Positions 2,767 through 40,614 of a stretch of DNA of 64,000 nucleotides are shown here, one piece after another. The stretch comes from Candidatus Arcticimaribacter sp. (GTDB taxonomy: Bacteria > Bacteroidota > Bacteroidia > Flavobacteriales > Flavobacteriaceae), in NCBI GenBank assembly GCA_965662875.1, contig CBFIJA010000002.1, positions 5,921 to 69,920 of the forward strand, read 5' to 3'. Under the pieces are notes generated by a model. It made no database searches, was not told where the DNA came from, and saw nothing but the letters and a program-made list of their open reading frames with translations. A program made the translations under genes and the position numbers. The stretch's first letter is position 1, and every line of letters starts with the position of its first letter.

Positions 2767-4344
2767 ATGAAATATTACATCCCTATTGTTGCCCTTCTTC
2801 TCGTTTTTTCATGTGCACAAGAAAACCAAAAATCAACAACCGATTGGAACGATTTCCCCTTACTGGAAACTGACATTAAAAGTCTTCAAGAAAGCTATGA
2901 AAACGGAACCAAAACCATTGAAGAAGTTACACAGCTGTATTTAAATCGAATCGAAGAAATTGATCAGAATGGGCCAGCACTACGCTCAATCATTTACATC
3001 AACCCCAATGCACTTGGCATTGCCAAAAAACTAGATCAAGAACTGAAGGAGGGAAAATCCAGAGGGCCACTCCACGGTATTCCTGTAGTACTAAAAGACA
3101 ATATAAACACCTATGATCAACCCACCACTGCCGGTTCTAGAGCACTTGCAGGTTCTATCCCTGAATTAGACAGCGAAGTGGCGAAAAAACTTAGAATTGC
3201 AGGAGCAGTGATTTTAGGAAAAGCCAACTTAAGTGAATGGGCAAATTTTAGGGGTCAAAACTCCAGTAGCGGCTGGAGTGGTATCCAAGGGCAAACCAAA
3301 AATCCATACGTTTTAACCCGTAATCCCTGCGGTTCAAGTTCTGGATCTGGGGTTGCTGTTTCAGCCAACCTAACCCTTTTGGCCATAGGAACTGAAACCA
3401 ATGGATCTATAGTTTGTCCTTCGCACGCCAATGGGGTTGTGGGAATAAAACCTACAGTAGGCTTGATCAGTAGAAGCGGTATCATCCCAATTTCATTTAC
3501 TCAAGACACTGCAGGTCCAATGGCCAGAAGCGTTACAGATGCAAGCATAGCCCTAGGTCTTATGGTAGGGGTAGATTCCACAGACCTTAAAACCCTTGCC
3601 AGTGCTGAAAAGTACAGTACTGACTACAGTGTGTTTTTAAACAAAAACGGACTAGAAGGCAAACGAATTGGGATTTACACTCCCCCCTTTGGTCAAAACA
3701 AAGATGTAGATAACCTCAGCAATAAAGCCATCGCCTTGATGAAAGAAAAGGGGGCTATATTGATTGAAATTGACAAGATCGCTCCAACCGGAACAGGAAG
3801 ACATTCTTTTCAAGTCATGCTGCACGAATACAAAGCTGGACTCAATGAATATTTTGCAGCCTTGGGGGAAAATGCACCTATAAAAACCTTAGAAGAACTG
3901 ATTGCATTCAATGCAAAAGACAGTATTGAATTAAAATACTTTAATCAAGCTTACCTCAAAATGGCTGCCGAGAAAGAAGGCCTGGACAGTGATGCCTATA
4001 AAACAGCATTGGAAAACCTTGAGCGCATGAGTCAACAAGAGGGAATTGACCGGGTGATGAAAGAACACAGCTTAGATGCCTTTATTGCGCCAACAGGGAG
4101 TCCTGCATGGAGTACTGATTGGTTGAATGGAGATAATTTTCACTTGGGGAGCTCATCTCCAGCAGCTTGGGCAGGATACCCAAACATTACCGTTCCTATG
4201 GGCAATGTTCATGGATTACCGGTCGGGCTATCAATATTTGGAACGGCTTGGTCCGAAGGAAAATTAATTGAAATTGCCTATGCTTTTGAGCAAGCAAGTC
4301 AAGCCCGTATCGTTCCCAGCTTTCGAAAAAATGATGCGGAATAA
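2767..4344 (+). CDS. amidase (amidase-signature family), lipoprotein-type signal
   Basis: Amidase signature GSSSGSGVAVS. The start was moved to MKYYIPIVALLLVFSCAQ (signal peptide plus lipobox Cys). The ORF-track start at 2719 looks like an N-terminal over-extension. Confidence 0.85.
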   Translation: MKYYIPIVALLLVFSCAQENQKSTTDWNDFPLLETDIKSLQESYENGTKTIEEVTQLYLNRIEEIDQNGPALRSIIYINPNALGIAKKLDQELKEGKSRGPLHGIPVVLKDNINTYDQPTTAGSRALAGSIPELDSEVAKKLRIAGAVILGKANLSEWANFRGQNSSSGWSGIQGQTKNPYVLTRNPCGSSSGSGVAVSANLTLLAIGTETNGSIVCPSHANGVVGIKPTVGLISRSGIIPISFTQDTAGPMARSVTDASIALGLMVGVDSTDLKTLASAEKYSTDYSVFLNKNGLEGKRIGIYTPPFGQNKDVDNLSNKAIALMKEKGAILIEIDKIAPTGTGRHSFQVMLHEYKAGLNEYFAALGENAPIKTLEELIAFNAKDSIELKYFNQAYLKMAAEKEGLDSDAYKTALENLERMSQQEGIDRVMKEHSLDAFIAPTGSPAWSTDWLNGDNFHLGSSSPAAWAGYPNITVPMGNVHGLPVGLSIFGTAWSEGKLIEIAYAFEQASQARIVPSFRKNDAE

Positions 4345-4397
4345 AACCCAACCAAACTTCATAAAACACGAAAACTCTTATCTTTAAATCAAAAAAA

Positions 4398-5294
4398 GTG
4401 AGCTTAAATTTAGTAGAAGTAAACAAATCCTATGGAGAAGTTCAGGCCCTAAAAGCCGTAACATTCAACTTGAAGAAAGGGGAAATTGTAGGCTTATTGG
4501 GTCCTAACGGTGCTGGGAAATCTACCTTGATGAAAATATTAACCGGCGCTTTGCACCAATGGGAAGGCACAATCACATATGATCAAAAAAACCTACAAGA
4601 AAACTTAGCTTTTGTACAAGCCAAGACAGGCTATCTCGCAGAAAATAATCCGTTGTACAAAGAAAAAAATGTACAAGAATACCTTTCTTTCATTGCATCT
4701 TTATACAAAATAAAAAATACTACCCTAGACCAGACGCTTGCTGAAGTAGGCCTACAAGAAAAAAAGCACGCTAAAATAGCAACGCTTTCTAAAGGCTACC
4801 AACAAAGGGTAGGTCTTGCAGCTGCACTATTGCACAATCCTTCTTTATTAATTTTGGATGAACCCAGCACAGGGCTTGACCCGAACCAGATGGTCGAAAT
4901 TAGAGCTTTGATTCGGAAATTAGGAAAAGATAGGATGGTCTTGTTTTCTACTCACATTTTATCAGAAGTAGAAAGTGTTTGTGATAGGGTCATCATCATC
5001 AACAAAGGAGAAGTAGTTGCAAATCAGTCAATGGAAGAATTACGAAAAAATCAGCGGCAAATTATTGAAGTAGAATTTGACTATCGCGTAGAAACAGAAG
5101 CAATAGCAAGAATGGAAGGCATTGAGAAAGTTGTAAATACCTTTGACTTCAAATACGAGATTCACTGCAAAAGTGATTTTGATTTACGCCCTAAAATCTT
5201 TGACTTTGCGCACGACAATCAGCTGAAAATTTTAACACTACAACAAAAAAACATCAAGCTAGAACAACTGTTTCAATCTTTGACCGAGAATTAA
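4398..5294 (+). CDS. gldA: ABC transporter ATP-binding protein, GldA-like (gliding motility)
   Basis: 298 aa. Walker A GPNGAGKST, signature LSKGYQQR, Walker B LLILDEP. The C-terminal region (EVEFDY ... FDFAHDN-LK) resembles Flavobacterium GldA as I recall it. GTG start. Confidence 0.65.
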   Translation: MSLNLVEVNKSYGEVQALKAVTFNLKKGEIVGLLGPNGAGKSTLMKILTGALHQWEGTITYDQKNLQENLAFVQAKTGYLAENNPLYKEKNVQEYLSFIASLYKIKNTTLDQTLAEVGLQEKKHAKIATLSKGYQQRVGLAAALLHNPSLLILDEPSTGLDPNQMVEIRALIRKLGKDRMVLFSTHILSEVESVCDRVIIINKGEVVANQSMEELRKNQRQIIEVEFDYRVETEAIARMEGIEKVVNTFDFKYEIHCKSDFDLRPKIFDFAHDNQLKILTLQQKNIKLEQLFQSLTEN

Positions 5295-32781: not shown

Positions 32782-33330
32782 TTATTTCACTTTAGAGGGG
32801 TTTTGTGTGACAAAAGCTTTCCAACCCGTATATTTTTTATCTGGCCCGCCCTTACCAGCATTATAAAAATGACATACTGCAGCTGCCAAGCCATCTGTAG
32901 AATCTAAATTCTTTGGCAAGGTTTTTATTCCCAGTAAACTTTGTAACATCTTTGCTACCTGCTCTTTACTAGCGTTTCCGTTTCCGGTAATGGCCATTTT
33001 AATTTTTTTAGGCGAGTATTCTGTGATGGGAATGTCACGCGACAACCCGGCCGCCATAGCTACCCCCTGTGCTCTACCCAACTTTAGCATGGATTGTACG
33101 TTTTTCCCAAAAAAGGGTGCTTCAATCGCAATTTCATCGGGATGATAATTGTCGATCAACTCAAGAGTACGGTTGAATATGTGTTTTAGTTTCAAGTAAT
33201 GATGATCGTATTTAGAGAGTTGTAACTCATTGAGCATCATAAACTCCATGTTGTTGTTCACCACTTTAATCAATCCGAATCCCATGATGGTGGTTCCGGG
33301 GTCGATTCCTAAGATGATGCGTTCTGACAT
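32782..33330 (-). CDS. ruvC: crossover junction endodeoxyribonuclease RuvC
   Basis: 182 aa. [24 protein letters not shown] and the [11 protein letters not shown] catalytic acidic residues. Confidence 0.92.
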
Positions 33331-33331
33331 G

Positions 33332-33820
33332 TTATGTTTGTGGTGTAGCGATGATCCTTATGGGAACCTTAATGCTTGTTTTTACTTTTACTCCAACATT
33401 GGTTTTTGTAGCAGGCAAAGCCAAAGGCAATTGAGCAACAGCATTTGTCAGGATATTTTCAAGATCATTTACCGCATCAAACACCGTTGAAGCTCCTTCG
33501 GTATCGGTAAGACGAATGGCGCCATCAGTATCGATGAGAAGCGTTAAAATAATTTCTCTATCTATCTCTTGATTAGACACTAAAGGTTCTGCATAAAGTC
33601 CTTCTTCTAAAGAGGTGCGCAAAGTGTCTTTAAAACAGTTAAATTGTTCGTCCGATTCTAAATCTCCACACCCTTCAAAGCTTGGAGCTTGATCATTATC
33701 GGACCAAGACGAAGCTTGTTTTATTTGCTGTGGCGTATGGGTTGTGGTTTCAAAATATTCACAACTGACCATCGTTAAAGCGCAAATTGTAATGGACAAA
33801 AAAGAAAAGGATGATCTCAT
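33332..33820 (-). CDS. hypothetical lipoprotein
   Basis: 162 aa. Signal plus lipobox (LTMVSC). The C-terminal half is vaguely TonB-C-like. Confidence 0.45.
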
Positions 33821-33906
33821 GATATGTGTTTATTGTTCGGGTATTTATAATCATAAAATTACGACTTTTTTTTATATTTAGCTTCAAACCAAAAAACAAC
33901 AACTCC

Positions 33907-34386
33907 ATGGATCTTATTTATGAAATCGCGGGAATTATCCTTTTACTTTTAGGGGTTATTGGAAGTTTTTTACCGGTACTCCCAGGCCCACTAAGCGGAT
34001 GGCTTGGGCTATTTATAGCCAATCAAAGCACCCGAGTGGATTTTGAAACGTCTTTTATAATTACCACTTTTTGTATCGCCCTTGCTGTTTTTCTATTGGA
34101 TTATATCATTCCTGCCTTGGGAACAAAAAAATTCGGGGGATCCAAAAAAGGGGTTATAGGTTCTACAATTGGATTGGTTTTAGGCTTGCTTTTTTTAGGT
34201 CCCTTGGGTATTATTTTAGGTCCTTTTATAGGTGCATTTTCAGGAGAACTCCTAAATGAACCCGATAAAAAAGTGGCTTTTAAAGCCGCAATTGGCTCTT
34301 TTTTAGGTTTTATCACCGGGGTGATTCTAAAATGCCTTGTTGCTTTAGCCTTTTTGTTTTTGGGGATTTCAGAATATATGAACTAA
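33907..34386 (+). CDS. DUF456-family membrane protein
   Basis: About 159 aa from MDLIYEIAGIILLLLGVIGSFLPVLPGP. Gly-rich TM helices. The ORF-track start at 33826 looks over-extended. Confidence 0.65.
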   Translation: MDLIYEIAGIILLLLGVIGSFLPVLPGPLSGWLGLFIANQSTRVDFETSFIITTFCIALAVFLLDYIIPALGTKKFGGSKKGVIGSTIGLVLGLLFLGPLGIILGPFIGAFSGELLNEPDKKVAFKAAIGSFLGFITGVILKCLVALAFLFLGISEYMN

Positions 34387-34422
34387 TTTTTTTGCCTTTA
34401 AAGAAACCGCTTTTTCGTAACC

Positions 34423-34439
34423 TTCAATCAAACCACAAC
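34423..34439 (-). repeat. solitary CRISPR-repeat-like element (5' GTTGTGGTTTGATTGAA), complementary to the anti-repeat at 37934-37950
   Basis: Pairing with TTCAATCTTATCACAAT gives 13 Watson-Crick pairs, 2 G:U pairs and a 2-nt internal mismatch over 17 nt. It lies 68 nt downstream of the Cas9-like stop on the same strand. Only one copy was seen. The true 3' extent is unknown and could run to about 34404. Confidence 0.5.
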
Positions 34440-34506
34440 ACTATATTTATTTATGAAATCGTAATGGGTTAGGTAGTGTACAAAGCGAACAATGCACAAT
34501 GATGTT

Positions 34507-37500
34507 TTACGCGAAAAAACGGTTCTTTTCTAAAGCATAATCTGTTTTTTTTATTTGACCGATACAGTCTACCTCTACTTTGATGGGATTGTAATTAAAC
34601 CATCCTGTTTTTTTATCGCCAAAATTATTTATCCTTATGTAGTCCGGAAATTCTGTGCTATTGGATGTGGGTTTATAAGCCAATCGAAATTCATAGTATT
34701 TACTGGATAATTTTTGTACTCGGTATAAAATCTTCATCAAATAAGCGTTAGACTCTAAGGCTATGTTTTCCTCCAAACGATCTGCACCCATCAGAAATAA
34801 ATCGTTGGTTTTTAATACCGTAATCAAGGCGTTTTGTTCCGGTTGGGGCACCTCGACAATGGGTTTTCCTTTTGTCATTCTTTGAACTACTTCCCAAAAA
34901 CTGACTACATCTTCATGCAGCTGTCCAGCTATATCCTCATAAATCAATACATGGTGATTGTTTCTAGGGATAACAAATTGATTTTTATGGGCCTTTAATT
35001 TTACTTCCGTATTGAACGCTTCACGAATACGCACCTTTTTAATGGGAACAGGATCTCCCTTTGTGTTAGGCAAAAATAATTTGGGCTTCACCCTTCCTGC
35101 TTTATCTTTTTTGAAAAAAGTGTTTGGCGGGATTTGTTGTTTCCCGTCAAAGTTTTTTATGACCGCTTCTTGCACTAGTTTTTTAACTACTGGATCAACA
35201 ATTTTATCAACTTGATTGATTGATTTGATTTGATTTAAGGGTTTACGAATGTGAAGTGCAGTGACCTTGTTGGGGGAAGTTCGTTTTCCGTAAAAACTCT
35301 CTTTATGCAACATACCACGAACAGAGACATTGTTACTAAACACCTTGATGTCCTCTTTTTTAATCCATTTTTTTCGTGTTGAAAGGATTCTTTTTTGGCT
35401 TTTATAAGAGACTAAAATTTCGTTGAAATGCTTTGTGAAATCTTCAAAATAGTTGTTGTAAGGCCTAGGGAAACTCGTTTTATTTTGGGGCCATTTGTAT
35501 TTATTTCGCTGCTTCAAGCTTTCCAAATGCTCGGTTGTTTTAACTGCGTTGACAAAAGAACGCATAGCGCTCTGACGATAATCCAATGCTTTTGACTTTT
35601 CTTTGTATGAATTCAAAAGCAACCATTGCTCTATCAAATGCTGGGTGGTATTTCCCATAGAAATATTGACTTCTTGAAAAACAATGGACAACACACTTTC
35701 TAAACTTCTAGATATAATGTGCGGATCATTAAACTGTTGTTGTATGATATTGCGTTTGTTGTATTTTTTCACAAAACGCTGAAATTTTGTAAAACTTGCT
35801 GGATGCTGTCTAGTATTGGAGAATTGATACATCAACCGTTTTTTTATTTCCCCCCAATTTTCCATTTGAGTGTTCATAAAATATTCGTGTGGGGTTCTTC
35901 CCTCTAACTCTTCTGCGACTTCGGCAAAACAAAGAACTTTATTGAGGTGGCTGTCGTTCAAGGAAAACTCCCATGGATTGATGTATACAATTCTAATCTC
36001 TTGAGTAAAAAGGGAGGCAATTGGTATGGGTTTGTTTGTGAAAGGGCAAACTTTTTTACACTCTTCAAAGAGGTCGTATTTTAGGATATTCATAGGAGTG
36101 AGGTTCACACCTAATTTTTTGATGATATTGAAATATCGATCTCGGTTTCCTTTTATTCTTTTTTGATCAATTTTATAGATAAAGCGCTGCATCCGATTTA
36201 CTTTTAGGTCCACAGAAAGTTCACAATTGATACTGGATATTGATCCGTACTTTTTAAGCAAAGCATTCAAGACCTTTCGAAGTTCAAAAACACTTTGTAT
36301 TACAATGTTCTTATCTAATTTATGTATCAGTTTGTCCGTTTCTTTGGAAACCTCAAAATACTTTTCAAGGTTCTTATCCCTTTTTTTTGGGGGTATACCA
36401 TAAACTTTCTTGGATTTAAATTGCAATTCTGGACATGAAGCATCGAACCATGACTGAAGTTTTGAAAGTACTTCTTTGGTACTGTTTTCCTTTTTTATCT
36501 TCAATGCTGCAGTTGCAATTTCTGCTTTATTTTCTGCTGAAAGTGTCTCCCAATGGGGCGCAATAGCATTTTTTATACCGCCCAAAAAAACAGCGGTCTT
36601 GTATCGATACCCCTGACGTAAAAAAGGAAGTAAATTTCTACACGCCTTTTTACTCAACAAGGCATACGTTTTATCTAGACTAATTTTCGAAAACTGCTCT
36701 GCACAATATTCATCAAGACCAAACTTTTCTTCTGCATGTTGTTTTAACTTTTCAAGATCGTCAAAAAAATAAAGCGCATGAAAAACATCTTCTTTAAGTT
36801 TTGAATCCATGTTGAACCAATCGGTTCCAAAAAATTTATTTTTTGACATTTCATAGTCGATGAATATTCCTTTAAATATTTCATCATCTCTATAGTTGAA
36901 TGCCTTTTTATCTGGCAGTTGCAGTCTGTTTTTAAGATCTGAAAATTTAAATTTGTAGTTGGATCGTAAAAAAGCAAAAGTCACCCGTCTTTCTTCTTCT
37001 TCAAGGGGTTGGTTATTGTACTGTATTGAATTGATCCATTTCCAGGCTTCTACCTCTTGGCATTCAAAAGAAGATACACAAGCTCTTGTTTTATTTGGTT
37101 CAAGTGAACAATTGCCGACTTTGTGCTTTTGAGACTTTAAGCGCCTAAGAAAAAACACAGCCCCTTTTGGGGTTCTGTCATTTGGATTTCCGATCAGACG
37201 TTCCCTTAAACCCTCTTGGAAATGATAAAATCGAGATTGTATTTCCCATATTTTATGAATTTCATCAAAATACATTTGGGTAGAACAGATACGGTTTCGA
37301 ACCCGTTCCAACTGGTGTGTATAGCTCTTATTCTCTCTCGGCAATAGCTGAAATAAATACTCCCCTAAAGTGTTTTCTTTCACCGATCGTTGAGTTTGTT
37401 CGTAGCCAATTTTACCGTCTTCTTGACTTCCTTTATAGAGCACACTTCCTTTTAGTCTTGAATGGCGTTCGCCAAAACGATACCCCCTACGCTGTGTTAT

Positions 37501-37908
37501 TTGATAAAGTATTCGTCCCAATTCATTCAAGGAAAGCTTATCTGAAACGCCCTTTTTTCGAAGCGCATAGGGATTCATGGACAGCCATTGATCTAACTCA
37601 TCATGCGGAAAATGTTTTTTTTGTTTCCATTGTTTTAGACTTTCTAGAGCTACAGGACACATATTGTGCTGGGCTAAAATTCTAAGTAAATAATACTTCC
37701 TTGATCGAATCCTTGCATGACGGATTCTATGGAGTCGGTAATTTCGTTTACTCTTTTTTTTGGATTGTTCGCGCTTACCCCAACCGAAATTTTCACAGTC
37801 TGGATTGAACCGGTGCACTCCCATTCCCAAAATCTTCTTTCGATCGGTTTCATAAAGGGTCCAGCCGACAGCACTTGCATCCAAATAAATTCCTAGCTTT
37901 TTTGACAT
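34507..37908 (-). CDS. Cas9-like protein (type II-C-like architecture) with substituted HNH and RuvC-III catalytic residues
   Basis: 1133 aa. GIYLDASAVGW (RuvC-I), Arg-rich bridge helix RNYRLHRIRHARIRSRKYYLL, PYALRKK..LGRILYQITQRRGY, NCSLEPNKTRAC...AWKWIN, LSKKACRNLLPFLRQGYRY and INCELSVD (RuvC-II). The HNH-shaped segment is RIVYINPWEFSLNDSHLNKVL...GRTPHEYF. The RuvC-III-shaped segment is DYRQSAMRSFVNAV. Confidence 0.85.
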   Translation of the reverse strand: MSKKLGIYLDASAVGWTLYETDRKKILGMGVHRFNPDCENFGWGKREQSKKKSKRNYRLHRIRHARIRSRKYYLLRILAQHNMCPVALESLKQWKQKKHFPHDELDQWLSMNPYALRKKGVSDKLSLNELGRILYQITQRRGYRFGERHSRLKGSVLYKGSQEDGKIGYEQTQRSVKENTLGEYLFQLLPRENKSYTHQLERVRNRICSTQMYFDEIHKIWEIQSRFYHFQEGLRERLIGNPNDRTPKGAVFFLRRLKSQKHKVGNCSLEPNKTRACVSSFECQEVEAWKWINSIQYNNQPLEEEERRVTFAFLRSNYKFKFSDLKNRLQLPDKKAFNYRDDEIFKGIFIDYEMSKNKFFGTDWFNMDSKLKEDVFHALYFFDDLEKLKQHAEEKFGLDEYCAEQFSKISLDKTYALLSKKACRNLLPFLRQGYRYKTAVFLGGIKNAIAPHWETLSAENKAEIATAALKIKKENSTKEVLSKLQSWFDASCPELQFKSKKVYGIPPKKRDKNLEKYFEVSKETDKLIHKLDKNIVIQSVFELRKVLNALLKKYGSISSINCELSVDLKVNRMQRFIYKIDQKRIKGNRDRYFNIIKKLGVNLTPMNILKYDLFEECKKVCPFTNKPIPIASLFTQEIRIVYINPWEFSLNDSHLNKVLCFAEVAEELEGRTPHEYFMNTQMENWGEIKKRLMYQFSNTRQHPASFTKFQRFVKKYNKRNIIQQQFNDPHIISRSLESVLSIVFQEVNISMGNTTQHLIEQWLLLNSYKEKSKALDYRQSAMRSFVNAVKTTEHLESLKQRNKYKWPQNKTSFPRPYNNYFEDFTKHFNEILVSYKSQKRILSTRKKWIKKEDIKVFSNNVSVRGMLHKESFYGKRTSPNKVTALHIRKPLNQIKSINQVDKIVDPVVKKLVQEAVIKNFDGKQQIPPNTFFKKDKAGRVKPKLFLPNTKGDPVPIKKVRIREAFNTEVKLKAHKNQFVIPRNNHHVLIYEDIAGQLHEDVVSFWEVVQRMTKGKPIVEVPQPEQNALITVLKTNDLFLMGADRLEENIALESNAYLMKILYRVQKLSSKYYEFRLAYKPTSNSTEFPDYIRINNFGDKKTGWFNYNPIKVEVDCIGQIKKTDYALEKNRFFA

Positions 37909-37931
37909 TTGTATATTTTTTTATACATTTG
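37901..37931 (+). promoter_or_regulatory. Bacteroidetes-type promoter for the tracrRNA-like gene (TTTG-N19-TACATTTG)
   Basis: TTTG at 37901-37904, a 19-nt spacer, then an exact TAnnTTTG at 37924-37931. It overlaps the Cas9-like start codon on the opposite strand. Confidence 0.5.
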
Positions 37932-37933
37932 AA

Positions 37934-38004
37934 TTCAATCTTATCACAATAAGGCTTTATGCCGTAGATAAAATTCTTAAATCCCGCTTCGGTGGGATTT
38001 TTTT
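37934..38004 (+). ncRNA. tracrRNA-like small RNA (anti-repeat, nexus hairpin, UUCG-capped terminator)
   Basis: UUCAAUCUUAUCACAAU-AAGGCUUUAUGCCGU-AGAUAAAAUUCUU-AAAUCCCGC-UUCG-GUGGGAUUU-UUUU. The CACAAU-AAGGC..GCCGU module parallels the SpCas9 AAAAU-AAGGCUAGUCCGU nexus. The 5' end is inferred from the promoter only. Confidence 0.6.
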
Positions 38005-38413
38005 ATAAATTTTCATTGATTTTTCTCTCTTCCTCGCCCAGCATACCATAATGGTATTTTAATAACAAGGGGTAAAACCTCCATATTGAATTTCCTGTCA
38101 CTTCTTTGGCTTTGTGGAAGGCCAATTCGTTTTTTTCTAAAAAATCTAAAGTTTTACTTTTTACAGTCTCTTCCATATAATTTATGGGATCCAATAGACG
38201 TAATCTAAACCCTTTACGAACGGCTGTATACATATTTTGAGCGTCTAATTTTTGCAATAAAGAATGTTTCACTTTGTAAAATTTGGGAGAATTAACTTCT
38301 AATAACTTTTGCAATTGTTGTTCACTCATTCCTAAAGCATAGGAACGCAACATTAGAAACTCTTTTGTAGTTAATTTTTTTGAGTCATTTTGGGTCGGTA
38401 TATTTTTACTCAT
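38003..38413 (-). CDS. small LuxR/FixJ-type HTH protein
   Basis: 136 aa. LTTKEFLMLRSYALGMSEQQLQKLLEVNSPKFYKVKHSLLQKLDAQNMYTAVRKGF fits the LuxR C-terminal HTH pattern (LT.RE..vL.l.a.G.s..eia..L..s..TV..h...i..KL...n...av). No receiver domain. Confidence 0.65.
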   Translation of the reverse strand: MSKNIPTQNDSKKLTTKEFLMLRSYALGMSEQQLQKLLEVNSPKFYKVKHSLLQKLDAQNMYTAVRKGFRLRLLDPINYMEETVKSKTLDFLEKNELAFHKAKEVTGNSIWRFYPLLLKYHYGMLGEEERKINENL

Positions 38414-38608
38414 AAGTAGTGATATATATAGTGTTATAGCATCAAAAATGACACTCTTACCAAAACTTTCAATGCTACTTGTAAGGGCCGGTTGGTTTAA
38501 ATGGTTATCTGGTCAAATCGTGTTCTAGGTGGTTATAATTTTTTGTAAGCGTTGTTTCTTGTCGTATTTTGCATTTCGTTATCGTATTTTTTGGTGTATT
38601 TTAGCACC

Positions 38609-38812
38609 ATGGAACTTTTTCTAATCTCATTTGTTTTAATCGGTCTTGCTTTTGCGGGAATTGCCATCAAGATTTTGGTAAAGAAAGAAGGTAAGTTTGC
38701 AGGTACGTGTGCCAGTCAAAGCCCTTTTCTCAATAAGGACAATGAACCTTGTGGTTTCTGCGGAAAGCTCCCAGATGAACAGGAATGCCGAAATCCTGAA
38801 GTGATAAAATAA
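38609..38812 (+). CDS. small membrane protein with a Cys-rich tail (NqrM/DUF539-like?)
   Basis: 67 aa from MELFLISFVLIGLAFAGIAI. One TM helix, then GTCAS..x14..CGFCG..x8..C. The family assignment is tentative. Confidence 0.4.
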   Translation: MELFLISFVLIGLAFAGIAIKILVKKEGKFAGTCASQSPFLNKDNEPCGFCGKLPDEQECRNPEVIK

Positions 38813-38852
38813 AGCGGCATTCCACAAAAAAATCTCTATCTTCGGTTTAGGT

Positions 38853-39416
38853 ATGGAGGATAAAGCCATTGCGAACGCCATTTTACTTGCCAAAAAAAAC
38901 AATCAAAAAGCTTTTGCTCTGCTTTATGATGCCTATTGGGAGTATTTGTTTTCTTATTTGCTCAAAAAAAATATCCCTGAAGATCTAGCAGAAGACCTTG
39001 CCATTAAAACCTTTTCTAAAGCATTTGATAAAATAGCGACTTACGACGCTAAGTATACATTCAAAACTTGGCTCGTTACCATTTCCAAAAATCTTCACAT
39101 TGACCAACACCGAAAAGACAAAAAGCAAATTCAATCTAGAAATGAATCGCTAGAAATCAGTCAAATTCACAATGTGATGGATGAAAACCCTTCGCCAGAA
39201 GATTTGTTGATTACAACGCAAAACCTCAAAGGTTTACTAAAACAAATAAAAGGATTAAAACCGGTATACAGCAAGGTAATCAAGCTTCGCTATCTACAAC
39301 AGTTAAGCTATAAAGAAATAAGTGATGAGATGAATTTACCGCTCAACACAGTGAAAGTAACACTTCTAAGGGCCAAAAAAATATTGGCTGAAAAAATCAT
39401 CAATGAAAAAATTTAA
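38853..39416 (+). CDS. ECF-type RNA polymerase sigma-70 family factor
   Basis: 187 aa. Region 2 (DLAEDLAIKTF...FKTWLVTISKNLHIDQHRK) and region 4 (KLRYLQQLSYKEISDEMNLPLNTVKVTLLRAKK). Confidence 0.85.
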   Translation: MEDKAIANAILLAKKNNQKAFALLYDAYWEYLFSYLLKKNIPEDLAEDLAIKTFSKAFDKIATYDAKYTFKTWLVTISKNLHIDQHRKDKKQIQSRNESLEISQIHNVMDENPSPEDLLITTQNLKGLLKQIKGLKPVYSKVIKLRYLQQLSYKEISDEMNLPLNTVKVTLLRAKKILAEKIINEKI

Positions 39417-40614
39417 TCTTCAAAAACTGGGTCCAGGCTTACTCTTTGCTGGTGCGGCCATTGGGGTTTCGCATTTGGTACAATCAACACGGGCTGGAGC
39501 TGATTTTGGCTGGGGTTTGTTGTGGGCTTTAGTGTTGTCCAACCTTTTCAAGTATCCCTTTTTTCAATTTGGCCCACGGTTTGCCTTGGCGACAAATAAA
39601 AATTTACTGGAAGGGTATTTTCACCTCGGAAAGCATTATCTGTGGCTCTATTTTTTTCTAAACATGGCTACAATGTTTACCATTCAAACTGCGGTAACCA
39701 TTGTTACTGCAGGACTTGCCTCTTCCATTTTTGGAATAACGGCTGACTTGGTTGCATGGAGTGCATTAATTACCGCTCTTTGCCTAATTCTTTTACTTCT
39801 TGGGAAATATAAACTCTTGGACAAGGCCATAAAAGCCATTATTTTACTTTTGACCCTATGCACCCTAATCGCTGTAGTTTGGGCAGGACACAAAAACACA
39901 TCCCCTTTAGAATTTTCACAAATAATTCCTCACGGAAACGAACTTCTTTTTTTAATTGCATTTATGGGATGGATGCCTGCTCCTCTGGACATTTCCATAT
40001 GGCAATCTTTATGGGCTTTGGAAAAGAAAAAAACGGAAAAGCTCAGCTATAAAGAGGCTTTATTTGACTTTAATGTTGGCTATATCGTTACGGTAGTACT
40101 TGGAGTTTGTTTTGTTGGACTGGGTGCTTTTGTCATGTATGGATCGGGGACTCGTTTTTCTAACTCAGGAGGAGAATTTGCCAATCAGTTGGTTGCATTG
40201 TATACCCAAACACTTGGCGAAGAACTTTATGTTTTTATTGCCATCGCTGCCTTTACAACCATGTTTAGTACGACTTTGACAACGCTGGACGCCTCTCCCA
40301 GAGCAATGGAGAAAACCATGAATTTACTATTGCCAAAAATTAATTTTTTCACTTATCGCTTTTGGATTTTAGTTTTGGCCAGCGGAACCCTCTTTATTTT
40401 TGCTTTTTTAGCATCAGAAATGGGGAGATTAGTAGCTATAGCTACAACCTTGTCTTTTATCACTGCACCCTTGTATGCTTTTTTAAATTTCCGCTTGGTA
40501 ACAGGAGATCAAATGCCCCTAGATGCACGTCCTAAAAAAGGCTTATTGGTTTTAAGCTTAGTAGGTTTACTCTTTTTAAGCGGCTTTGCGATTGGCTTTC
40601 TCTTCACCCTATAA
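39403..40614 (+). CDS. polytopic membrane transporter, NRAMP-like divalent cation transporter family (tentative)
   Basis: 403 aa with about 11 TM segments. The N-terminal [25 protein letters not shown] resembles short Bacteroidetes Nramp-family proteins. Overlaps the sigma gene by 14 nt. Confidence 0.55.

What the first reader, a model, noticed from the sequence alone, without database searches (positions are those of the whole stretch)
37934..38004. tracrRNA-like gene divergent from the Cas9-like ORF, with its own promoter, anti-repeat, nexus and UUCG terminator hairpin
Seen in sequence, on the plus strand right after the Cas9-like start codon:
- A full Bacteroidetes promoter, TTTG (37901-04), N19, TACATTTG (37924-31).
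- Then UUCAAUCUUAUCACAAU | AAGGCUUUAUGCCGU | AGAUAAAAUUCUU | AAAUCCCGC-UUCG-GUGGGAUUU-UUUU.

The CACAAU-AAGGC(loop)GCCGU module mirrors the SpCas9 sgRNA AAAAU-AAGGCUAGUCCGU nexus. The 3' hairpin is 9 bp with a UUCG tetraloop and a U7 tail. The 5' 17 nt are complementary to the solitary repeat at 34423-34439.

The hairpin also lies at the stop codon of the LuxR-like gene, so it could serve both strands. Even so, the U-tract is much better on the plus strand. An RNA of about 70 nt with all three tracrRNA modules next to an array-less Cas9-like gene is unlikely to be coincidence.
Basis: partly seen in the sequence, partly recalled or inferred. Interest (0 to 1): 0.82.

Follow-up and report, generated by a model that had tools for sequence, protein, structure and literature searches.

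The report
tracrRNA of a naturally dead Cas9
The flagged 70-base stretch is a genuine tracrRNA gene serving a Cas9 that has lost both DNA-cutting sites, its CRISPR array and its spacer-acquisition genes but keeps one fixed guide, which suggests a natural "dCas9" reused by marine Flavobacteriaceae for something other than immunity.

Summary
Window 37934-38004 (+) holds a small RNA gene with a Bacteroidetes-type promoter, a 13-17 nt anti-repeat, an invariant AAGGC-loop-GCCG nexus, a second hairpin and a UUCG terminator hairpin with a U7 tail.

The same gene sits at the same place in more than 40 orthologous loci of marine Flavobacteriaceae, whose Cas9-like proteins are only 31-50% identical. Of 14 base pairs, 5 show compensatory changes and 98.9% of cells pair. 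It is plainly homologous to the tracrRNA of active sister type II-C loci that carry 34-88-repeat arrays, one of them with cas1-cas2.

The adjacent 1133-aa Cas9 homologue lacks the RuvC-I Asp, the RuvC-III His and Asp, and the HNH Asp, His and Asn. There is no cas1/cas2 and no array. Downstream on the cas9 strand lies one truncated repeat (34423-34439) that pairs with the anti-repeat. It is preceded by a 20-22 nt guide that is nearly invariant across the close clade.

Most likely this is a hard-wired dCas9:tracrRNA:crRNA complex that binds a fixed chromosomal site. This function is inferred. No target was found. The guide-plus-repeat element also persists in species that have deleted the tracrRNA. 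I found no published description of a fully dead chromosomal Cas9.

The parts
37901..37931 (+). Promoter of the tracrRNA gene: -33 TTTG (37901-37904), 19-nt spacer, -7 box TACATTTG (37924-37931). The -33 box abuts the dCas9 start codon on the other strand.
   Evidence: Read directly in the sequence. A T[AT]nnTTTG box ends 3-7 nt upstream of the conserved RNA core in 35 of 45 dead-clade loci, against 27-28 nt in the two active loci. Promoter activity itself is inferred.
37934..38004 (+). tracrRNA gene, about 67-71 nt. The 5' end is inferred from the promoter position and lies somewhere in 37934-37938. The 3' end is the U7 tract.
   Evidence: The covariance model gives a hit at 37934-38005 with 94.8 bits and E = 5e-20, the only hit in the window. 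It is conserved in 39 distinct sequences. It is homologous to the tracrRNA of active loci L073 and L075.
37934..37950 (+). Anti-repeat UUCAAUCUUAUCACAAU. The core AUCUUAUCACAAU (37938-37950) is almost invariant in the family.
   Evidence: Alignment A3. It forms a duplex with the repeat of 8 bp, a UU/UU mismatch, then 7 bp, at -17.5 kcal/mol. Active loci show the same geometry with 8 + 15 bp at -28.4 kcal/mol.
37951..37964 (+). Nexus module: AA, then hairpin GGC-UUUAU-GCC (37953-37963), then G.
   Evidence: All three pairs are invariant in 39 of 39 sequences. Invariant pairs say nothing for or against the helix itself. The sequence is identical in the active-system tracrRNAs.
37966..37977 (+). 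Hairpin 2 (AGAU-AAAA-UUCU). It has only 3 bp in this window.
   Evidence: Three of its four pairs change on both sides among orthologues: A-U/G-C, A-U/G-C/G-U, and U-A/C-G.
37981..38004 (+). Terminator hairpin AUCCCGC-UUCG-GUGGGAU (37981-37998; two further A-U pairs are possible) plus a U tract to 38004.
   Evidence: Seven pairs, 99.6% of cells paired, two pairs with compensatory changes. The U run is 5-10 nt in all loci.
34507..37908 (-). Nuclease-dead Cas9 homologue (dCas9), 1133 aa, type II-C-like.
   Evidence: Pfam hit to HNH_4, with weak hits to RuvC_III and Cas9_a. PDB profile hits to GeoCas9, NmeCas9, CjCas9 and CbCas9. Catalytic residues are replaced: RuvC-I GLDLG becomes GIYLD, HNH (D/E)H becomes VY, the HNH Asn becomes Ala, and RuvC-III DHRHHAxDA becomes DYRQSAMRS. 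The RuvC-II Glu and the bridge-helix arginines are kept.
34423..34439 (-). Solitary truncated CRISPR repeat GUUGUGGUUUGAUUGAA, the tracrRNA-pairing handle of a crRNA-like RNA.
   Evidence: Its first 14 nt are identical to the first 14 nt of the 36-nt repeat of the active sister arrays. It is the only copy in the window. It is present downstream of the gene in all loci examined.
34440..34461 (-). Fixed guide (spacer-like) segment CGAUUUCAUAAAUAAAUAUAGU lying immediately 5' of the repeat. Conservation extends to about 34473 in the nearest relatives.
   Evidence: The stretch AAATAAATATAGT plus the repeat through GATT is invariant in 30 close-clade loci, and 29 of the 30 also keep the next G (L012 reads GATTAAT). 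Adjacent coding DNA is only about 63-66% identical. Its role as a guide is inferred, and no target was found.
34490..34500 (-). Tentative degenerate second repeat (ATTGTGCATTG) just after the dCas9 stop codon.
   Evidence: Distant-clade loci carry a well-preserved upstream repeat ATTGTGATTTGATAC. It is preceded by TTTG plus 17-19 nt, resembling a promoter. In this window only 9 of 11 positions match. Weak.
38003..38413 (-). 136-aa LuxR/GerE-type helix-turn-helix protein upstream of the tracrRNA gene, on the dCas9 strand. Its stop codon lies in the tracrRNA U tract.
   Evidence: Pfam GerE is found in 10 of 15 orthologues (best E = 2.7e-8). A PDB profile hits the NarL/VraR helix-turn-helix domain. 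It is found only in the close clade and was removed by the same deletions that removed the tracrRNA. Whether it belongs to the system is uncertain.

Best explanation
Window 37934-38004 (+) encodes a bona fide tracrRNA. [quoted passage not shown]

In this lineage the system has been reduced to three parts that are inherited vertically at one chromosomal site. The first is a Cas9 with both nuclease active sites destroyed. The second is the tracrRNA, whose promoter has moved so that only 13-17 nt of anti-repeat remain. The third is a one-unit mini-array downstream of the gene: a fixed guide of about 20-22 nt followed by the first 13-17 nt of the repeat.

Proposed mechanism:
- The tracrRNA is transcribed divergently from its own TTTG/TAnnTTTG promoter and ends at the UUCG hairpin and U7 tract.
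- Its 5' end pairs with the solitary repeat (8 bp, a UU/UU mismatch, then 7 bp).
- The nexus and two hairpins are bound by dCas9.
- The resulting complex uses the fixed guide to bind one conserved nucleic-acid site without cutting it. That site is most probably chromosomal DNA. The complex would then act as an RNA-guided regulator, in the manner of CRISPRi.

Shown here: the gene, its structure, its homology, the dead active sites, the loss of array and cas1/cas2, and the conserved partner repeat and guide. Inferred: transcription, binding to dCas9, DNA binding, and any regulatory output.
For: - The RNA is conserved in every orthologous locus that retains the 5' end of the gene, although the proteins are only 31-50% identical.
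- Its structure is supported. 98.9% of cells pair, against about 40% when partners are slid. Five pairs show compensatory change, and 0 of 500 shuffles reach the observed covariation score. RNAalifold independently predicts the same three helices.
- Active sister loci L073 and L075 have 88 and 34 repeats of GTTGTGGTTTGATTAAAGATTAG..., and L075 also has cas1-cas2. Both carry the same RNA with a longer anti-repeat.
- The duplex geometry, including the UU/UU mismatch, is inherited from those loci.
- Anti-repeat and repeat change together. U-A, U-G and C-G alternate at one position (L023). The 4-nt extension of the anti-repeat in the close clade is matched by UGAA in the repeat.
- The catalytic residues are replaced, but the RNA-binding bridge-helix arginines are invariant.
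- There is one repeat in the window and no cas1/cas2.
- Conservation upstream of the repeat extends about 20-22 nt, the length of a Cas9 guide.
- The gene order is syntenic in 60 or more species, so the system is old and vertically inherited.
Against: - No target for the guide was found in the 64-kb window, in 66 loci of 11 kb, in IMG/VR, or in a truncated metagenome scan.
- The guide-plus-repeat core stays 90-100% identical in 12 or more species that have deleted the tracrRNA and most of dCas9, while flanks are 48-89% identical. This could mean a dCas9-independent role for that element, or merely recent deletions.
- Several lineages carry frameshifted or truncated dCas9 genes, so the system is dispensable.
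- The short 13-17 bp duplex and the crRNA promoter and ends are untested.
- There are no expression data.
Confidence: 0.72

Rival explanations
1. The tracrRNA and dCas9 are real and work together, but the downstream guide-plus-repeat element is not their dedicated crRNA. It would have its own function, for example as a small RNA or as part of a bidirectional terminator between dCas9 and the DUF456 gene. The tracrRNA would then pair with other cellular RNAs that carry repeat-like stretches, or dCas9 would act with the tracrRNA alone.
For: - The element is retained almost unchanged in species lacking the tracrRNA and most of dCas9.
- It is enclosed by a covarying long-range stem followed by a U run. 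Cognate arm pairs give -19.3 kcal/mol against -11.1 for non-cognate pairs. This looks like an independent structured RNA.
- No target for the guide was found.
Against: - The repeat is clearly derived from the CRISPR repeat, with 14 of 14 nt identical, and lies where the array lies in active loci.
- Repeat and anti-repeat change together.
- Conservation stops about 20-22 nt upstream, as expected for a spacer.
- Most remnant ORFs are still open, so the deletions may simply be recent.
Confidence: 0.15
2. The locus is a decaying relic of a type II-C system. The dead Cas9, tracrRNA and lone repeat would be non-functional remains that have not yet been erased.
For: Catalytic residues are lost, and so are the array and cas1/cas2. 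Several orthologues are frameshifted or internally deleted.
Against: - Intact ORFs of about 1120-1145 aa are kept in about 35 species at 31-50% identity, with more than 150 invariant positions within the clade.
- The RNA helices are kept through compensatory substitutions.
- The promoter box is kept at a fixed distance.
- A neutral relic would not survive divergence of this depth.
Confidence: 0.05
3. The hairpin at 37979-38004 is only the intrinsic terminator of the LuxR-like gene, and the upstream similarity to an sgRNA scaffold is coincidence.
For: The stop codon of the 136-aa ORF lies in the U/A tract. In some orthologues the ORF reads through the hairpin.
Against: - Loci without the LuxR-like gene keep the entire RNA.
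- The anti-repeat and nexus are more conserved than any neighbouring sequence.
- The U tract is on the plus strand.
- The RNA is homologous to the tracrRNA of active systems.
Confidence: 0.02
4. The dCas9:tracrRNA pair acts as a decoy or interference factor against active type II-C systems, for example by sequestering crRNAs with the same repeat, like the phage-encoded II-C2 Cas9 proposed as an anti-CRISPR.
For: The anti-repeat core is identical to that of active sister systems, so it could pair with their crRNAs. There is a precedent in Altae-Tran 2023.
Against: - The locus is chromosomal, syntenic and vertically inherited, not on a mobile element.
- It carries its own invariant guide.
- No active type II system is seen in the window.
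Confidence: 0.04

Closest known systems
tracrRNA of active type II-C CRISPR-Cas systems of Flavobacteriia (for example the Flavobacterium sp. UBA6135 locus, L073, and L075)
   Same: - Same position and orientation relative to cas9.
- The sequence is near-identical from AUCUUAUCACAAU-AAGGCUAUAUGCCGUAGAU onward.
- Same three helices and U tail.
- Same 8-bp + UU/UU start of the repeat:anti-repeat duplex.
   Different: - The anti-repeat is cut down from about 25 or more paired nt to 13-17 nt, because the promoter sits 3-7 nt rather than 27-28 nt upstream of the core.
- The partner is a single truncated repeat with a fixed guide, not an array.
- The protein is nuclease-dead and has no cas1/cas2.
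Regulatory cr-like RNAs of type II systems: the F. novicida scaRNA:tracrRNA pair and S. pyogenes tracr-L (described in bioRxiv 10.1101/2023.03.03.530964)
   Same: A repeat-derived RNA with a fixed, non-acquired guide works with the tracrRNA scaffold and Cas9. It binds a chromosomal site without cutting it.
   Different: - Those systems use a catalytically active Cas9 and avoid cleavage through short (about 11-15 nt) complementarity. They coexist with a working array.
- Here cleavage is impossible by loss of the active sites, and the array is gone.
- The target here is unknown.
Phage-encoded II-C2 Cas9 with an inactivated RuvC domain (Altae-Tran 2023, PMC10910872; Makarova 2025, PMC12669027)
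   Same: A type II-C Cas9 that has lost its array association and keeps a nearby tracrRNA.
   Different: - That protein keeps an active HNH domain, is encoded by phages, and is proposed to be an anti-CRISPR.
- This one has lost both nuclease sites, is chromosomal, syntenic and vertically inherited, and has its own guide.
Exapted nuclease-dead RNA-guided proteins: TldR (from TnpB), dCas12f with an ECF sigma factor, and Cas12m/Cas12c (PMC10705468, PMC12259090, PMC12669027)
   Same: An RNA-guided nuclease turned into a DNA-binding factor with hard-wired or limited guides. Some of these are found in Bacteroidota.
   Different: - They belong to a different protein family (the TnpB/Cas12 lineage) and use a single guide RNA.
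- No Cas9-derived example is reported in those papers.
- The ECF sigma gene near this locus stays in place in species that lost dCas9. It is absent from the distant clade, so there is no specific link.

Membership tests
tracrRNA (type II CRISPR-Cas) | Encoded next to a cas9 gene | tested here: met
   The RNA lies 26 nt from the start codon of the Cas9 homologue and is divergent from it. The arrangement is the same in about 45 loci.
tracrRNA (type II CRISPR-Cas) | 5' anti-repeat complementary to the cognate CRISPR repeat | tested here: met
   It pairs with the solitary repeat at 34423-34439 (minus strand) at -17.5 kcal/mol. The geometry matches the active sister loci. Changes on the two sides are correlated.
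tracrRNA (type II CRISPR-Cas) | 3' scaffold of nexus plus hairpins ending in an intrinsic terminator, kept by selection | tested here: met
   There are 14 pairs, 98.9% of cells pair, and 5 pairs show compensatory change. The nexus pairs are invariant.
tracrRNA (type II CRISPR-Cas) | Homology to a tracrRNA of a working system with an array | tested here: met
   It aligns with the RNAs upstream of cas9 in L073 and L075, which carry arrays of 88 and 34 repeats. The model R1 recovers L074 at 95.9 bits.
tracrRNA (type II CRISPR-Cas) | Expressed, bound by Cas9, and required for crRNA use | not testable with these tools
   This needs RNA-seq, northern blots and RNA immunoprecipitation.
Rfam tracrRNA model and other Rfam families | Match to a curated covariance model | tested here: not met
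   No hit in window 33000-39500 at E up to 10, apart from a chance S15 match. No hit in six loci, including the active L073. This tracrRNA lineage is not represented in Rfam.
Type II-C CRISPR-Cas adaptive immune system | Cas9 with intact RuvC and HNH catalytic residues | tested here: not met
   The RuvC-I Asp, the RuvC-III His and Asp, and the HNH Asp, His and Asn are all replaced.
Type II-C CRISPR-Cas adaptive immune system | cas1-cas2 adaptation module | tested here: not met
   The neighbours are DUF456, RuvC resolvase, HemN-like, a LuxR-type protein, an ECF sigma factor and Nramp. The same synteny holds in the orthologous loci.
Type II-C CRISPR-Cas adaptive immune system | CRISPR array with many repeats and variable spacers | tested here: not met
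   The window has one repeat. Orthologues have one or two truncated repeats with a conserved spacer.
Regulatory cr-like RNA systems (scaRNA / tracr-L type) | Fixed guide complementary to an endogenous target near a promoter | tested here: inconclusive
   The guide is fixed and conserved. No target was found in the sequence available. The rest of the genome could not be searched.

The most novel reading that the evidence does not exclude
This would be the first natural, fully nuclease-dead Cas9. It is an old, vertically inherited chromosomal gene of marine Flavobacteriaceae that keeps a shortened tracrRNA and a single hard-wired crRNA. It would work as an RNA-guided transcription factor, or other sequence-specific binder, at one conserved genomic site. 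In one clade it may act together with the adjacent LuxR-type helix-turn-helix protein.
Probability: 0.45. Interest if true: 0.9.

Novelty: new variant of a known kind. Interest (0 to 1): 0.8.

Why it matters
Engineered dCas9 is one of the most widely used tools in biology, yet no natural counterpart is listed. The 2025 CRISPR-Cas classification (PMC12669027) mentions only a phage Cas9 with a dead RuvC domain and an active HNH domain.

The system described here would show that evolution also turned Cas9, not only TnpB and Cas12, into a non-cutting RNA-guided binder. It is widespread and vertically inherited, both nuclease sites are dead, the tracrRNA is conserved and the guide is fixed.

It also offers a compact natural guide scaffold, with a 13-17 nt anti-repeat, and a protein shaped by selection for binding without cleavage. 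The invariant guide makes the biological question directly testable: find the one site it binds.

Tried and rejected
1. Search for the guide's target.
- The 18-mer with up to 3 mismatches and the 12-mer with up to 1 mismatch gave only the locus itself in the window, plus a hit inside a MetH-like coding region.
- Seed and total-match scans of all 11-kb loci gave nothing that recurs, for both the guide and the sequence upstream of the first repeat.
- IMG/VR gave 6 hits at chance level with unrelated flanks.
The hits come from all kinds of habitats and look essentially random.
- My W-variant of the pattern does not correspond to any real guide, so half of that scan was wasted.

2. The promoter of the LuxR-like gene as target. 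A conserved ACTATAT/ACTAAAT motif lies 15-25 nt upstream of its ATG, and its complement equals the 7-nt guide seed in one subclade. Complementarity stops at 7 nt, and the other subclade has a seed mismatch while keeping the same guide. Rejected as too weak. The motif may be the -7 box.

3. Link with the neighbouring ECF sigma factor, by analogy with dCas12f-sigmaE. The sigma gene stays in species that lost dCas9 and is absent from the distant clade. Rejected.

4. The guide as a homologue of the CRISPR leader. The active loci have different sequence upstream of their first repeat. Rejected.

5. Rfam gave no family.

6. Literature searches found no description of a fully dead chromosomal Cas9. 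Paywalled papers are not covered.

Full report
**1. The observation**

The sequence is as described.
- TTTG lies at 37901-37904, followed by 19 nt and TACATTTG at 37924-37931.
- Then comes TTCAATCTTATCACAAT | AAGGCTTTATGCCG | TAGATAAAATTCTT | AAATCCCGC-TTCG-GTGGGATTT-TTTTT, ending at 38004.
- The Cas9-like ORF is 34507-37908 on the minus strand (1133 aa). Its ATG is 26 nt from the RNA's 5' end.
- The stop codon of the upstream 136-aa ORF (38003-38413, minus) lies in the T tract.
- The RNA folds better than all 200 shuffles (z = -3.27).
- Rfam has no matching family.

One correction is needed. On the plus strand, 34423-34439 (TTCAATCAAACCACAAC) is a direct near-copy of the RNA's 5' end. It is complementary only as the minus-strand transcript GUUGUGGUUUGAUUGAA. 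That gives 15 of 17 pairs, including two G-U, around a UU/UU mismatch (-17.5 kcal/mol). Two unrelated sites in the window pair equally well in this simple count. So the pairing alone is not beyond chance, and the case rests on comparison with other loci.

**2. The protein is a Cas9 with both nuclease sites destroyed**

Pfam finds HNH_4, with weak RuvC_III and Cas9 alpha-helical lobe matches. A profile of the clade hits solved GeoCas9, NmeCas9, CjCas9 and Chryseobacterium Cas9 structures.

A database search found 146 relatives. In an alignment with active relatives and with GeoCas9, the clade at 40-100% identity to the window protein shows these replacements:
- RuvC-I: GLDLGTNSIGW becomes GIYLDASAVGW. 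The catalytic Asp is replaced by Tyr, Phe or Ser.
- HNH: (D/E)H becomes VY. This Tyr is invariant within the dead clade.
- The HNH Asn of ENRxKG becomes Ala or Val.
- RuvC-III: DHRHHAxDA becomes DYRQSAMRS.

The RuvC-II Glu and the arginines of the bridge helix, which holds the guide RNA, are kept. The next clade out (36-40% identity) has every catalytic residue intact.

**3. Orthologous loci**

A scan of one genome per species returned 66 loci, all from marine Flavobacteriaceae MAGs such as Candidatus Arcticimaribacter. The neighbourhood is syntenic throughout: DUF456, RuvC resolvase, a HemN-like gene and a 474-aa gene on one side. In the closer clade, a LuxR-type gene, a small Cys-rich membrane protein, an ECF sigma factor and Nramp lie on the other. 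None of the dead-clade loci examined shows cas1, cas2 or an array. The gene is therefore old and vertically inherited at one chromosomal site.

About 35 loci have full-length ORFs with dead sites. A few branches keep the HNH His or the RuvC-III His and Asp while still lacking other catalytic residues. Six are frameshifted. Sixteen retain only a C-terminal remnant.

**4. The RNA gene is real and is a tracrRNA**

The RNA is present in every locus that retains the 5' end of the gene. It has the same position and orientation, and far higher conservation than the protein.
- The core ATCTTATCACAAT-AAGGC...GCCG is almost invariant.
- For the three helices I specified, 98.9% of cells pair, against 38-49% when the partners are slid.
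- Five of 14 pairs show changes on both sides, and no shuffle in 500 reaches the observed covariation score.
- RNAalifold predicts the same structure unaided.
- Hairpin 2, which is weak in this window, is the most strongly covarying helix. Examples are AGAUGAUAAUCU, AGACUUAAAAGUCU, GGACUUUUGUCC and AGGUGAAAAACCU.

The decisive point is homology with working systems. The active sister loci L073 (Flavobacterium sp. UBA6135) and L075 have arrays of 88 and 34 copies of a 36-nt repeat, GTTGTGGTTTGATTAAAGATTAG(A/G)AA... L075 also has cas1-cas2. Upstream of cas9 and divergent from it, both carry ...TTCTAATCTTTAATCTTATCACAATAAGGCTATATGCCGTAGATGAAAATCTTTAGTCCTGC...GGGACTTTTTTT. That is the same RNA with a longer anti-repeat.

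A covariance model of the family finds one copy in the window (37934-38005, 94.8 bits). It also finds the expected copy in loci not used to build it, and none in the truncated loci.

A T[AT]nnTTTG box ends 3-7 nt upstream of the core in 35 of 45 dead-clade loci, but 27-28 nt upstream in the active loci. The anti-repeat was therefore shortened by relocation of the promoter.

The "terminator of the LuxR gene only" reading fails, because the distant clade lacks that gene yet keeps the whole RNA.

**5. The partner RNA**

Every locus examined has a conserved unit downstream of the stop codon, on the cas9 strand, where active loci have their array.
- In the close clade, including the window, it reads ...CCTAACCCATTAC(A/G)ATTTCAT(A/T)AATAAATATAGT | GTTGTGGTTTGATTGAA.
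- The first 14 nt of the repeat equal the first 14 nt of the active 36-nt repeat.
- The duplex with the anti-repeat has the same 8 bp + UU/UU start as in active systems.
- The two sides change together. Repeat position 7 paired with anti-repeat U or C gives A-U, G-U and G-C (the last in L023). The 4-nt 5' extension of the anti-repeat in the close clade is matched by UGAA in the repeat.
- The stretch AAATAAATATAGT plus the repeat through GATT is invariant in 30 close-clade loci, and 29 of the 30 also keep the next G (L012 reads GATTAAT). The adjacent coding DNA is about 63-66% identical.
- Conservation fades about 20-22 nt upstream of the repeat, the length of a Cas9 guide.

Distant clades have two short repeats...TTTG-N17-19-ATTGTGATTTGATAC, then 35-50 nt ending in (A/G)TATAGT, then ATTGTGATTTGA. 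The sequence around the first repeat resembles the tracrRNA promoter of the same loci. This suggests a repeat-embedded promoter, as in other type II-C systems. That last comparison rests on established knowledge of type II-C systems and is not tested here.

A long-range stem encloses the unit: one arm directly after the stop codon, the other after the repeat, followed by a U run. Cognate arm pairs average -19.3 kcal/mol against -11.1 for non-cognate pairs. The stem is weak in this window (-9.4). It could be a terminator or a processing stem.

**6. How it most likely works**

Shown here: a conserved tracrRNA, a dead Cas9 that keeps its RNA-binding helix, a repeat-derived handle with a fixed guide, and no array or adaptation genes.

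Inferred: the three parts form a complex that binds, without cutting, one conserved site and regulates it. The guide is essentially the same in species that diverged long ago. This argues for an endogenous conserved target rather than a virus.

I could not find the target. Only 64 kb of this genome and 11 kb of each related genome were available.

**7. Caveats**

The guide-repeat core is 90-100% identical in 12 or more species that have deleted the tracrRNA, the LuxR-type gene and most of dCas9. Their flanks are 48-89% identical.
- Most remnants are still open reading frames, so many deletions may be recent.
- My sample only contains loci that keep a C-terminal peptide motif, which is an ascertainment bias.
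- In one pair that probably shares a deletion (L049 and L065), the element has 1 difference in 41 nt, against 11-15% in the flanks. This hints weakly at selection without dCas9.
- I therefore give 0.15 to the rival in which this element has a role of its own.

Frameshifted and deleted copies show that the system is dispensable in some lineages.

**8. Comparison with known systems, and novelty**

The RNA meets every testable criterion of a tracrRNA. The system fails three defining criteria of a type II-C immune system: active nuclease sites, cas1-cas2, and an array. Functionally it most resembles scaRNA:tracrRNA and tracr-L regulation, but with a protein that cannot cut. Conceptually it resembles the exapted TldR and dCas12f proteins.

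The 2023 survey of rare systems and the 2025 classification describe only a phage II-C2 Cas9 with a dead RuvC domain and an active HNH domain. Six literature searches found no fully dead chromosomal Cas9. Papers behind paywalls were not searchable.

I rate it a new variant of a known kind, with interest 0.8.

Noticed in passing
window 38003-38413 (-): The 136-aa ORF is a LuxR/GerE-type helix-turn-helix protein with a conserved C-terminal helical domain of about 60 aa. In several orthologues the ORF reads through the tracrRNA terminator on the other strand, giving C-termini KKIPPKRD or KKSHRSGI. It occurs only in the close clade and was lost in the same deletions as the tracrRNA.
   Followed up: partly
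L049, L052-L066 (for example L062 = Candidatus Arcticimaribacter forsetii chromosome, about 3400-4800): Sixteen species carry internal deletions with different end points. These remove the LuxR-type gene, the tracrRNA and the N-terminal 640-1090 residues of dCas9. In L049 and L055 the start of the LuxR-type ORF now directly abuts the dCas9 C-terminal coding remnant. The guide-plus-repeat element remains intact.
   Followed up: partly
L006 7485 and 7670; L045 7509 and 7746; metagenome contig L149: The guide-plus-repeat unit is tandemly duplicated, about 185-237 nt apart. In L006 the duplication includes the stop-codon-proximal stem arm. In L149 one copy has a variant repeat (GTTATGG).
   Followed up: no
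L029-L035, L041, L050, about 3700-3900 (between a ppiD-like 700-aa gene and the tracrRNA): A conserved non-coding block: CCTTTTTTGCCC ... GTAGCAGTGAACC ... TTGCTTTGATTGTTATGCTAC ... GGTCGGGAA..CCCGACC hairpin. It replaces the LuxR-type gene of the close clade. It has no Rfam match and may be another small RNA.
   Followed up: no
L073 9418-9432: In the active Flavobacterium locus, an inverted copy of the repeat's 5' end (AACCAAACCACAAC) lies 24 nt upstream of the first repeat of the array. It could be a second anti-repeat-like element.
   Followed up: no
window 34386-34510 and the equivalent region in all loci: A long-range stem encloses the guide-repeat unit and covaries between loci. Its 5' arm overlaps the dCas9 stop codon, and its 3' arm lies just after the repeat and before a U run. 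It is 13-25 bp long in most loci and weak in this window.
   Followed up: partly
window 38552-38812 (+): A small Cys-rich membrane protein (86 aa, ...CASQSPFLNKDNEPCGFCGKLP...) lies between the LuxR-type gene and the ECF sigma gene. Like the sigma and Nramp genes, it is retained in the dCas9-deleted loci I read in full (L049, L055, L058, L062, L065).
   Followed up: no
L071 (IMG/VR contig) 2385-2402 and metagenome contig L175: Two related contigs share a 19-nt match to the guide (TTTCATAAATAAATATAGT) followed by A(A/T)CTTGTAG. This is probably chance given the AT-rich sequence and the size of the collections.
   Followed up: no
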